From an uncultured bacterium (GTDB lineage Bacteria; Muiribacteriota; UBA6191): a stretch of 50,502 nucleotides of DNA. How positions within the stretch are numbered: the stretch's first letter is position 1; each line of letters begins with the position of its first letter. The translations under genes and the position numbers were made by a program. The notes under the pieces are model-generated. The model searched no databases, had not been told where the DNA came from, and was given only the letters and a program-made list of their open reading frames with translations. The stretch spans positions 20,794 to 71,295 of the forward strand of contig CAZIKF010000024.1 in the NCBI GenBank assembly GCA_964539825.1, read 5' to 3'. Of this stretch, positions 42,634 through 44,098 are shown in pieces.

Positions 42634-44098
42634 TCAGCGAAATGGATTGCGTAGAGACTTGGAAACAATGGGTTTCCTGGCTGGCTCCGGGTAGAGTTCT
42701 TCAAATTTATGACTCTGTAGGGCACGATCTTTCTTGGATCCAAAGGCGAGTCTGATGAAGTTCTCAAACCAGGGATTACCTCGAAAACCGTAGTGTCCTC
42801 CGTACTTGAGAACAATGATATCTTTTTGGATCCGATCCCACTCATATTCGTTGAGCATAAGATCATAGATTCCACCCATTCCATCCTTGAGGGGATTATC
42901 CTCTATGGATCCCCAAACACCGGAATCGTTGAAGAAATCATCGGTTGTAGTTAAAACTCGAATGTTAGGAAAGCCCGCTGCTTGTGCCCGCGAAATCCAG
43001 TAATAAAGATGACCCTTTTTACTGAGAATAATCTTCCTTCCCTCTTGGTTCAAGTCTTTATAATAAGTGGAAAACTTGAATCGATTCTTCCACTCCTGGT
43101 AGGCCTTTTTTTCACTGGGTACATAGTTAAGATTTCGAACTTTGTCATAAGCTTTGACCGATTTCATCAGTCCTTTATAGAATCCTGGAAAGGCCACAAG
43201 CCCCTTTGCGTCCGTCAGAACTTCCTGGCCCGGGTTCGTTGGATCTTCCAGATTGCATGCTCTTCGAAATTTGAGATACATTTTGATCAGCCCCATCTCC
43301 TGGAATGGGTCACGCAACTCATCCACTAATGCATCAAGTCGATCAATACCTCTGCCAATGTGAAAGGGAGGAGCCATGATCGTCATATCAGTTGTGAATA
43401 TGGGATTTGGGTGCTCGGCATCAAGAGCCCCCAGTACAGAGGTGAAAAATCCTCCAAGACTAATCCCGATAAGCCTGACCGTCCCATTTAATCCATGGAG
43501 CAGTCTCAATTTTTTAAAGACTTCTCGCACTACCCCATAGAGGTTCTCTGCTTCGTTGGTGACTGTACCCAACTTGCTGATGGGAATCTCGGATACAAAG
43601 TCAGTACCAAATGGATTCGGGAAAGCAACCACGTGGTAGCCGAGGCGGGTAAGGGAATCGAGCCAACGATTGCCCATCACTTCATTAAGATTACCAAAGG
43701 TTCCTGGGAGAAAAATCGCAAGCGGGGCCCGAATAATCCTATTCTTGGAATCTCTTTGAAGACCAACCGCTACCTTTAAGCCTTCCACTTTCAAGATCTG
43801 ACGCGAAGACATTCCAAGTTTCTATTTTCACTTTCATTTCATCATAGGGGATTTTTCTAAGATGACAGGTGGCTGCCATGGAAGATAAAAAACCATCGTG
43901 ATAGGGCGTGGAATAAGTCTTGGCGTAATTCTTGAGTAGCTCATCCCAATCAGCGAATAGAAAGGAGTTACTGAATAAAAGGAGCAGGCAGGACAAAATA
44001 GTGCGGTGCAAATTCATCGATTTTTCCTCATAAAAAACAAAATATAGATCCCAAATGCATACGCTGGAATTCCACTTTTGTTTCCCTCCTGAAACCAA
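42634..44098 (-). pseudogene. Secreted alpha/beta-hydrolase paralogue copy 2, split by a +1 frameshift near 43775-43790
   Basis: The 5' part (43739..44098, signal peptide plus 'AKTYSTPYHDGFLSS...KVKIETWNVF') and the 3' part (42634..43812, GISLGG elbow) each match copy 1 (13636..15030). Compared with copy 1, copy 2 has one extra base in 'ggaaggcttaaag' (copy 1: 'ggcaaactcaag'). Confidence 0.6.

What the first reader, a model, noticed from the sequence alone, without database searches (positions are those of the whole stretch)
42634..44098. Second copy of a secreted alpha/beta-hydrolase carries a +1 frameshift; an intact paralogue lies 29 kb away
Genes 13636..15030 (+) and 42634..44098 (-) encode closely related secreted GxSxG hydrolases with long identical blocks. 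Copy 2 is split into two ORFs. Aligning the DNA at the junction shows one extra nucleotide in copy 2 ('gaaagtggaaggcttaaaggtagcg' against 'gaaacaggcaaactcaaggtagcg' in copy 1). This is a recent pseudogenisation, a sequencing or homopolymer error, or a programmed frameshift. Divergence is spread across the whole gene, so it is not a recent segmental duplication.
Basis: seen in the sequence. Interest (0 to 1): 0.5.

Follow-up and report, generated by a model that had tools for sequence, protein, structure and literature searches.

The report
Recently frameshifted secreted-hydrolase paralogue (pseudogene)
One of two old paralogues of a putative secreted serine hydrolase carries a real single-base insertion, present in every public assembly of this uncultured bacterium, so it is most likely an ordinary young pseudogene, not a sequencing error or a programmed frameshift.

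Summary
Copy 1 (13636..15030, +) is an intact 464-aa gene. Copy 2 (42634..44017, -) is split by one extra base inside CTTAAAGG (43780-43773). Removing one T, A or G there restores a 460-aa protein, 64% identical to copy 1 without gaps.

The insertion is not an assembly error. The same split occurs on at least 24 contigs from about ten samples (JGI, ENA, Logan, one NCBI MAG), on three SNP haplotypes. No intact allele exists among about 15 billion proteins.

Copy 2 has no second lesion, keeps the invariant Ser/Asp/His residues, and shows no rate acceleration. So the lesion is recent: neutral drift since then is below about 1-7%.

The proposed dN/dS test cannot work, because synonymous sites are saturated and copy 2 has no polymorphism.

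Nothing supports programmed frameshifting: no rare or stop codon, no RNA structure, and copy 1, P0002 and P0003 read straight through.

Verdict: an ordinary recent pseudogene, of low interest.

The parts
13636..15030 (+). Copy 1: intact 464-aa paralogue. It has a putative N-terminal signal peptide and an alpha/beta-hydrolase fold with invariant Ser190, Asp363/Asp364 and His412.
42634..44017 (-). Copy 2: the whole disrupted gene. It gives 460 aa once one base is removed, and a single uncompensated 1-nt insertion is its only lesion.
   Evidence: DNA and protein alignments. The repaired protein keeps all invariant family residues and deviates at 2 of 77 highly conserved columns, against 0-4 for the 13 closer intact members.
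43739..44017 (-). Upstream piece: a 92-aa ORF. It holds the signal peptide, N-terminal helices, strand beta1 and conserved Cys51 (81 homologous residues), followed by 11 out-of-frame residues (GSGWSSKRFQE) and TAG.
   Evidence: Annotated as HOF92_13410 / MBT3785966.1 and seen on at least 24 contigs. RBS-like GAGGA lies 8 nt upstream of the ATG.
43773..43780 (-). Frameshift site CTTAAAGG. One extra base lies in a short run (TT, AAA or GG). Leu-Lys is encoded in both frames here. The ancestral sequence was probably CTT AAA GTA, because P0002 has TTG AAA GTT.
42634..43812 (-). Downstream piece: an ORF of 392 aa from an internal ATG (384 aa from a GTG in the JGI gene call). It carries strands beta2 onwards, the GISLGG nucleophile motif, the helical insert, and the DD and GGHYG motifs, but it has no signal peptide.
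   Evidence: Annotated as HOF92_13415 / MBT3785967.1. Secondary structure of the model places the break between beta1 (residues 69-75) and beta2 (83-89).
43459..43461 (-). Codon AGT for the putative nucleophile Ser (GISLGG) of copy 2. It is intact.
   Evidence: Alignment columns. Corresponds to invariant S190 of copy 1.
42937..42942 (-). Codons GAT GAT for the invariant Asp-Asp (TTTDDFFND). One of the two is the putative catalytic acid. Both are intact.
   Evidence: The motif follows strand 356-361 in the model.
42793..42795 (-). Codon CAC for the putative catalytic His (GGHYGF) of copy 2. It is intact.
   Evidence: The residue follows strand 404-407 in the model.

Best explanation
Copy 2 is a young pseudogene, and the insertion that broke it is present in every sampled member of the population. 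The two genes are old paralogues of a small, uncurated family of putative secreted serine hydrolases. The family has an alpha/beta-hydrolase fold, a Ser-Asp-His triad and a large helical insert. In the recent ancestor of this nearly clonal, uncultured marine population, one base was inserted into CTTAAAGG, probably a G duplicated after AAA. This most likely arose by replication slippage in a 2-3 base run. Ribosomes that start at ATG 44017 now make a 92-aa peptide: the signal peptide, the first 58 or so mature residues, and 11 nonsense residues. The catalytic body is left in another frame without an export signal. Loss of the enzyme is tolerated because copy 1 remains, and because two further tandem family members (P0005 and P0013) probably lie in the same genome. 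Shown here: the lesion is real, it is present in all sampled contigs, it is the only lesion, and the fold is established. Inferred: loss of function, the slippage mechanism, secretion, and redundancy as the reason for tolerance.
For: There is a single uncompensated extra base, and both flanking frames align to intact homologues end to end. The identical split occurs on at least 24 contigs from JGI, ENA, Logan and NCBI (GCA_018654805.1), built with different assemblers and at different coverages. Three SNP haplotypes in the flanking genes all carry it. The exact repaired 460-aa sequence is absent from about 15 billion proteins, and the 90% cluster holds only truncated forms. Copy 2 has no second stop or indel, deviates at 2 of 77 conserved columns (0-4 in the 13 closer intact members), and shows no excess on its branch in Tajima tests, for example 28 against 28 changes versus P0002. 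The absence of a second lesion limits neutral drift to d below about 0.01-0.07. The break lies between beta1 and beta2 of a confidently modelled core, with pLDDT around 90 in residues 31-110. It separates the invariant Cys of the N-terminal segment from the invariant Cys of the insert. The nearest relatives P0002 and P0003, and copy 1, read straight through the site. Likely extra paralogues P0005 and P0013 lie on a contig from the same samples with similar coverage and a tetranucleotide correlation of 0.95 to the window.
Against: Nothing shows relaxed constraint directly. Copy 2 has no SNP in any contig, while neighbouring genes have a few, and synonymous sites are saturated against every relative. 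A still-expressed gene would therefore look the same. The catalytic residues are all intact. No expression data are available. AAA-G is in principle a codon on which tRNA-Lys can re-pair in the +1 frame, so some leaky full-length product cannot be excluded.
Confidence: 0.82

Rival explanations
1. Programmed or leaky +1 ribosomal frameshifting. tRNA-Lys in the P site on AAA slips to AAG (AAA G). An SD-like GGAAGG lies 3 nt upstream, the same spacing as in prfB, and may help. The result would be a low, possibly regulated, level of full-length secreted enzyme.
For: Leu-Lys is encoded in both frames at CTTAAAG, so a +1 slip on AAA-G restores exactly the family sequence. GGAAGG lies 3 nt upstream of AAA. 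The gene has no other lesion and keeps all catalytic residues. The frameshift is present in every sampled contig.
Against: The 0-frame A-site codon is GGT, a common Gly codon (27% of Gly codons, 17.7 per 1000). AGG is not rare either, and there is no in-frame stop at the site. In-frame AAA-G occurs 101 times in 12,176 codons of this window, so the site is not special. The downstream RNA folds no better than shuffled sequence (z = +1.12). Copy 1, P0002 and P0003 are encoded in a single frame across this site, and the other 12 close relatives (P0005-P0016) are full-length single ORFs, so the site is not conserved. SD-like motifs precede only 11 of 29 gene starts here, so an SD-dependent stimulator is doubtful. 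The clonality of the population explains the universal presence and the lack of decay equally well.
Confidence: 0.06
2. The downstream ORF is translated on its own, from ATG 43812 or GTG 43788. It would then act as an N-terminally truncated, cytoplasmic hydrolase, a case of neofunctionalisation by truncation.
For: A 392-aa ORF with an ATG start remains open and carries the complete Ser/Asp/His set. Public pipelines annotate it as a gene. This genome uses SD motifs only weakly, so the lack of an RBS does not exclude initiation.
Against: It would lack the signal peptide, two N-terminal helices and strand beta1, all of which are confidently modelled as part of the core. It would also lack the invariant N-terminal Cys. 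No family member of this truncated form exists other than partial gene calls. No SD-like motif precedes either internal start.
Confidence: 0.06
3. Sequencing or assembly artefact: the real genome has one base fewer and the gene is intact.
For: The extra base lies in short homopolymer runs (TT, AAA, GG). Raw reads could not be inspected.
Against: The same base is present in at least 24 contigs from about ten samples, several assemblers (SPAdes, MEGAHIT, JGI, Logan) and coverages from 2.9x to 6.3x. It occurs on three distinguishable SNP haplotypes. No intact version exists in about 15 billion proteins. Runs of 2-3 bases are not known error hot-spots for short-read consensus (established knowledge).
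Confidence: 0.02
4. Phase-variable (contingency) locus that switches on and off by slippage.
For: The indel lies in a homopolymer context.
Against: The runs are only 2-3 bases long, whereas known contingency loci use tracts of about 7 or more (established knowledge). All contigs from all samples are in the OFF state, and no ON allele is recorded.
Confidence: 0.01

Closest known systems
Frameshift pseudogenes of redundant paralogues in bacterial genomes (ordinary gene decay)
   Same: There is a single-base indel in a short run. An intact paralogue is retained. The gene is split into two annotated 'hypothetical proteins'. The lesion is present across a clonal population, and an IS element lies nearby.
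   Different: The lesion is very young. No second lesion and no polymorphism exist, so decay cannot yet be demonstrated. The host is an uncultured, deep-branching lineage, so expression cannot be checked.
Alpha/beta-hydrolase fold esterases and lipases (for example Pyrococcus furiosus esterase Pf2001, PDB 5g59; HSL-family/family IV esterases such as Pyrobaculum calidifontis esterase 2yh2 and E53 6keu)
   Different: Identity is only 10-15%. No Pfam or NCBIfam model reaches its cut-off. Invariant Pro, Gly, Phe and Asn in a PGxFxN motif (PG[TS]F[GV]N in most members) occupy the position where HSL-family enzymes have HGG. There is a helical insert of about 125 residues (224-350), an N-terminal extension with a conserved Cys, and a putative signal peptide. 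The substrate is unknown.
prfB-type programmed +1 frameshift (CUU UGA C with an upstream SD-like element)
   Same: A one-base forward shift is needed. A purine-rich GGAAGG element lies 3 nt upstream of a codon (AAA) whose tRNA can re-pair in the +1 frame.
   Different: There is no stop or rare codon in the A site. The site is not conserved in any homologue. The motif is common in ordinary genes of this genome.

Membership tests
Alpha/beta-hydrolase fold superfamily | Central mostly parallel beta-sheet flanked by helices (core fold) | tested here: met
Alpha/beta-hydrolase fold superfamily | Nucleophile elbow G-x-S-x-G between a strand and a helix | tested here: met
   G188, S190, G192 and G193 are invariant in 16 sequences. 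S190 sits between strand 180-189 and helix 191-205. Copy 2 has GISLGG intact.
Alpha/beta-hydrolase fold superfamily | Catalytic triad in the order nucleophile - acid - His, with the acid and His after the last strands | tested here: inconclusive
   Invariant D363/D364 follow strand 356-361, and invariant H412 follows strand 404-407. The order and positions fit. The 3D distances in the model could not be measured with the tools, and activity was not tested.
Alpha/beta-hydrolase fold superfamily | Match to a curated sequence model (Pfam Abhydrolase_1/6, NCBIfam) above its cut-off | tested here: not met
   For copy 1, Abhydrolase_1 scores 16.3 bits against a cut-off of 25.8. The repaired copy 2 matches no hydrolase model, and NCBIfam gives nothing significant. 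Distant family members give sub-threshold full-length Abhydrolase_1/6 matches at 20-25 bits.
Hormone-sensitive-lipase family (family IV esterases) | HGG(G) oxyanion-hole motif upstream of the nucleophile | tested here: not met
   The conserved motif after the corresponding strand is PGxFxN, with P108, G109, F111 and N113 invariant (PG[TS]F[GV]N in most members). No HGG is present. Structural similarity to this family is no better than to other esterase families.
Secreted (Sec-dependent) protein | N-terminal signal peptide: basic n-region, hydrophobic core, cleavage site | tested here: inconclusive
   It is seen by eye in copy 1 (MSISLNSKRWFLTLLLFSCSVCQIFA|AW), in copy 2 (MNLHRTILSCLLLLFSNSFLFA|DW) and in 13 of the 14 aligned relatives; P0013, which lacks it as called, gains one when its ORF is extended to 451 aa. 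The model shows a low-confidence N-terminal helix at residues 6-24. No signal-peptide predictor was available. Copy 1 may instead carry a lipobox-like LFSC.
Pseudogene | Reading frame disrupted relative to intact homologues | tested here: met
   One extra base. The 0-frame terminates 11 codons later. All close homologues (P0002-P0016) are single ORFs apart from truncated gene calls.
Pseudogene | Lesion is real in the DNA, not an artefact | tested here: met
   At least 24 contigs, about ten samples and three SNP haplotypes carry it, and no intact allele is recorded. Raw reads were not inspected.
Pseudogene | Relaxed selective constraint after the lesion | tested here: inconclusive
   pS is at least 0.75 (saturated) against all relatives, and pN/pS is about 0.2-0.3 on both sides of the break. 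There is no rate acceleration and no SNP in copy 2. All of this is expected if the lesion is very recent.
Pseudogene | No functional product is made | not testable with these tools
   This needs metatranscriptome or metaproteome data, or a reporter assay.
Programmed +1 ribosomal frameshift gene (prfB-like) | Frameshift site conserved among orthologues | tested here: not met
   Copy 1, P0002 and P0003 are in one frame across the site. All other family members are single ORFs.
Programmed +1 ribosomal frameshift gene (prfB-like) | Slow-to-decode A-site codon (stop or rare codon) next to a slippery P-site codon | tested here: not met
   The A-site codon GGT makes up 27% of Gly codons. AGG makes up 21% of Arg codons. 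AAA-G occurs in frame 101 times in 12,176 codons.
Programmed +1 ribosomal frameshift gene (prfB-like) | Upstream SD-like stimulator at the right spacing | tested here: inconclusive
   GGAAGG ends 3 nt upstream of AAA. However, it matches the SD core at only 4 nt (AAGG), and SD-like motifs precede only 11 of 29 starts in this window.
Phase-variable contingency locus | Long homopolymer or short tandem repeat tract, with ON and OFF alleles in the population | tested here: not met
   The runs are 2-3 bases long. Only the OFF state is seen in all contigs.

The most novel reading that the evidence does not exclude
The single-base offset is decoded. tRNA-Lys slips +1 on AAA-G, helped by the GGAAGG element 3 nt upstream in a prfB-like geometry. 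The cell would then make a small, possibly condition-dependent, amount of a secreted hydrolase from a gene that annotation pipelines split in two. This would be a recently evolved, non-conserved recoding site in a deep-branching uncultured lineage.
Probability: 0.04. Interest if true: 0.6.

Novelty: new member of a known kind. Interest (0 to 1): 0.15.

Why it matters
This matters mainly for annotation. Public records, including NCBI HOF92_13410 and HOF92_13415, list the two pieces as separate hypothetical proteins. They should be merged and flagged as one frameshifted pseudogene. The case also shows that cross-assembly comparison can settle 'error or real' without raw reads. It further shows that dN/dS cannot date a lesion when the only comparators are saturated paralogues. 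A secondary point is that the gene belongs to a small alpha/beta-hydrolase family that no Pfam or NCBIfam model covers. The family has about 800 cluster representatives, and its distant members are found in Bdellovibrionota MAGs. It is expanded to probably four copies in this uncultured lineage. That could merit a family model and a biochemical test, but nothing about it is mechanistically surprising.

Tried and rejected
1. dN/dS (Nei-Gojobori) on each side of the break, against copy 1, P0002 and P0003. Synonymous sites are saturated (pS 0.76-0.92), so no dS or omega can be computed. pN/pS of about 0.2-0.3 reflects only ancient constraint.

2. Population polymorphism in copy 2. No SNP was found in any contig, so the test is uninformative.

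3. Scans of genome contigs and metagenome contigs with peptides specific to the repaired copy 2. Both found nothing. Those collections evidently lack the relevant contigs. The look-up of encoding contigs supplied them instead.

4. Pfam and NCBIfam searches. No family reached its cut-off. A spurious IMS_C hit for copy 2 (17.6 bits, below its cut-off) was ignored.

5. A PDB sequence-profile search. It gave only one marginal hit, carboxylesterase 2c7b at E 0.57.

6. Synteny of P0002 and P0003 with copy 2. There is none. Only BipA is shared with the copy 1 neighbourhood.

7. Promoter and terminator scan around copy 2. The counts do not exceed those of shuffled sequence.

8. A suspected second frameshift at 25634-27240. 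The two overlapping ORFs are unrelated: one is an L-PSP family protein and the other has no family match. It was not pursued.

9. Taxonomic placement by BipA. It was unresolved, with about 50% identity to many phyla.

10. Literature search for the assembly accession. No papers were found.

11. Fold search against afdb50. The library was not available.

Full report
**Observation**

The ORF list shows one uninterrupted gene at 13597/13636..15030 (+). On the minus strand it shows two overlapping ORFs, 43739..44098 and 42634..43812. A global DNA alignment of the two loci needs a single one-base gap near 43780. Translating the three frames across 43720-43860 shows where the frames meet. The upstream frame reads ...KIETWNVFASDLESGRLK and then runs into GSGWSSKRFQE*. 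The frame shifted by one base reads LKVAVGLQRDSKNRIIRAPL.... Copy 1 has ...KVETWEVFTPELETGKLKVAVALQRNSKKKILRAPL at this point.

The extra base lies within CTTAAAGG (43780-43773, minus strand). Deleting one T, one A or one G there gives the same repaired protein of 460 aa. That protein aligns to copy 1 over 460 residues at 64% identity with no gap. The true start of copy 2 is ATG 44017 (MNLHR...), not the TTG at 44098. It is preceded by GAGGA, matches the N-termini of the homologues, and is the start used in public annotation.

**Is the extra base real?**

The downstream ORF (P0001, P0017, P0020) and the 92-aa upstream ORF with its out-of-frame tail (P0021) are both present in public collections. 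The NCBI assembly GCA_018654805.1 annotates them as adjacent genes HOF92_13410 and HOF92_13415. The exact repaired 460-aa sequence is absent from about 15 billion proteins. The 90%-identity cluster holds only 250-392-aa forms.

P0021 is encoded on at least 24 contigs. These come from JGI (3300028188, 3300038303, 3300072015), ENA (ERZ4231637, ERZ4200991, ERZ27237643, ERZ27245994, ERZ27237645, ERZ23491197), Logan and NCBI. They were built with different assemblers and have different coverages, and every locus returned, and every gene table shown, has the same two overlapping ORFs. All fetched contigs are 99.85-100% identical to the window and align without gaps.

The few SNPs define at least three haplotypes: the reference, 41007G + 44451C, and 45339C. 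All three carry the frameshift, and none of the SNPs falls in copy 2. A sequencing or assembly error is therefore effectively excluded, although raw reads were not inspected. The insertion predates the present, very shallow, diversity of the population.

**What the gene is**

Neither copy reaches a Pfam or NCBIfam threshold. The best match is Abhydrolase_1 at 16.3 bits, against a cut-off of 25.8. Only 16 relatives were found by the word-indexed search of 5.8 billion proteins. An exhaustive profile search of 1.84 billion cluster representatives found 816 at E <= 1e-3 and 164 at E <= 1e-30. Of ten of those distant members scanned, three give only sub-threshold Abhydrolase_1/6 matches and seven match nothing.

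In the 16-sequence alignment the invariant residues include the following:
- G188-x-S190-x-G192-G193, the nucleophile motif.
- D363-D364 within TTTDDFFND.
- G410-G411-H412-Y413-G414.
- A cysteine pair, C55 and C258.

An AlphaFold2 model of copy 1 is confident, with pLDDT 83.8 and pTM 0.84. It places S190 between strand 180-189 and helix 191-205. The Asp pair follows strand 356-361, and His412 follows strand 404-407. This is the canonical arrangement of an alpha/beta hydrolase. A helical insert spans residues 224-350.

Secretion is inferred from the N-terminal basic and hydrophobic segment, which is present in nearly all members (read by eye). The conserved cysteine pair is consistent with secretion.

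**History of the two copies**

A neighbour-joining tree gives (copy 1,(copy 2,(P0002,P0003))). Bootstrap support is 100% for the copy 2 clade and 74.5% for adding copy 1. Synonymous sites are saturated between all of these genes.

P0002 and P0003 lie in other genomic contexts in related organisms. BipA on the contig that carries P0003 (L011) is 81% identical to the window's BipA.

Two further family members, P0005 and P0013, sit in tandem on a contig from the same samples. Coverage is similar: 7.1x, against 6.0x and 6.3x for the contigs carrying copies 1 and 2 in ERZ4231637. GC is 46%, and the tetranucleotide correlation to the window is 0.95, against 0.97 between the two halves of the window. 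They probably belong to the same genome, which would then hold four family members. This is an inference.

**Age and consequence of the lesion**

The repaired copy 2 deviates at only 2 of 77 highly conserved columns: V to I beside the nucleophile motif, and P to Q in NPEG. The 13 closer intact members deviate at 0-4 columns. Tajima relative-rate tests show no excess on the copy 2 branch: 28 against 28 changes versus P0002 with P0005 as outgroup, and 50 against 45 versus copy 1. There is no second stop or indel.

About 3.2% of substitutions in this gene would create a stop. With an indel-to-substitution ratio of 0-0.2, the absence of a second lesion limits neutral drift since the insertion to about 0.01-0.07 substitutions per site.

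The break falls between beta1 (residues 69-75) and beta2 (83-89) of the modelled core. Translation from ATG 44017 therefore yields the signal peptide, two helices, beta1 and Cys51, followed by 11 nonsense residues. The catalytic body has no export signal and lacks beta1. Loss of function is the straightforward expectation, but it is inferred, not shown.

**Rival: programmed frameshifting**

A +1 slip of tRNA-Lys on AAA-G would restore the family sequence. A GGAAGG element lies 3 nt upstream, which resembles the geometry at prfB. Against this stand several observations:
- The A-site codon GGT is common, at 27% of Gly codons.
- AGG is not rare, and there is no stop codon at the site.
- In-frame AAA-G occurs 101 times in 12,176 codons of this window.
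- The 106 nt from just upstream of the site onwards fold no better than shuffled sequence (z = +1.12).
- SD-like motifs precede only 11 of 29 gene starts.
- Copy 1, P0002 and P0003 read through the site in one frame. P0002 has TTG AAA GTT there, which suggests that the ancestral copy 2 was CTT AAA GTA and that a G was duplicated.

I put recoding at about 6%. Independent translation of the truncated ORF also gets about 6%, artefact about 2%, and phase variation about 1%.

**Comparison with what is known, and verdict**

This is an ordinary young frameshift pseudogene of a redundant paralogue. It lies in a nearly clonal population of an uncultured bacterium. Public annotation splits it into two hypothetical proteins.

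The host itself is poorly placed. Its BipA has only a handful of metagenomic relatives at 81-86% identity and is then about 50% identical to proteins of many phyla. The distant relatives of the hydrolase family (24-35% identity) lie in Bdellovibrionota MAGs.

The gene family lacks a curated model, which is a modest point of interest. The frameshift itself is not surprising. Interest is 0.15, and the novelty class is a new member of a known kind.

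Noticed in passing
window 47360-49665 (-): An IS21-type element lies 3.3 kb from copy 2. It consists of istA (517 aa; rve and Mu-transposase C-terminal domains) and istB (251 aa; IstB_IS21, 232.8 bits). Its ends and copy number were not examined.
   Followed up: partly
window 19312-21177 (-), BipA/TypA: The host lineage is poorly sampled and deep-branching. BipA has about seven unnamed metagenomic relatives at 81-86% identity. Identity then falls to 61%, 55% and about 50%, against Calditrichia, Ignavibacteria, Planctomycetota and Firmicutes alike. 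The NCBI MAG is labelled only 'bacterium'.
   Followed up: partly
L039/L040 5001-7995 (contigs ERZ4231642 NODE_10 and JGI Ga0427894_000016): Two further family members, P0005 (460 aa) and P0013 (451 aa with its signal peptide), lie in tandem next to two M16 peptidases and a beta-lactamase-fold gene. The contig comes from the same samples, has similar coverage, and has a tetranucleotide correlation of 0.95 to the window. It is probably the same genome.
   Followed up: partly
window about 16255; locus L006 from position 12429: Contig ERZ27246020 k141_144174 matches the window at 99.99% up to 16255 and then diverges. It carries an acetyltransferase gene where the window has an 86-aa ORF. This is a strain-variable spot 1.2 kb downstream of copy 1.
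   Followed up: no
copy 1 residues C55 and C258; copy 2 Cys51 (upstream piece) and Cys254 (downstream piece): Two cysteines are invariant in all 16 family members, one in the N-terminal segment and one in the helical insert. This suggests a conserved disulfide, typical of exported proteins. The frameshift puts them on different polypeptides. The distance in the model could not be measured.
   Followed up: no
window 46031-46088 (Band_7 gene 45108-46499); loci L020 and L021: A cluster of 3-6 non-synonymous mismatches occurs within 60 bp, only in two short contigs and close to their ends. It is probably a contig-end assembly artefact, not real variation.
   Followed up: no
window 9546-10619 (+): Another candidate hydrolase lies 3 kb upstream of copy 1. 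It is 357 aa and matches Esterase_PHB (PHB depolymerase-type esterase) at 30.1 bits, against a cut-off of 23.
   Followed up: no
L011 6001-11390 compared with window 13636-21177: P0003 groups with copy 2 in sequence, yet it lies 2 kb upstream of a convergently oriented BipA gene, as copy 1 does (4.3 kb). No other neighbour is shared. This could be a remnant of the ancestral position, or it could be chance.
   Followed up: partly
L028 (JBLHVN010000003.1, labelled Sulfitobacter sp.): A distant family member sits at nearly the same contig coordinates, and with the same identity, as in a Halobacteriovorax MAG (L026). The 'Sulfitobacter' label may reflect a mis-binned or mislabelled MAG.
   Followed up: no
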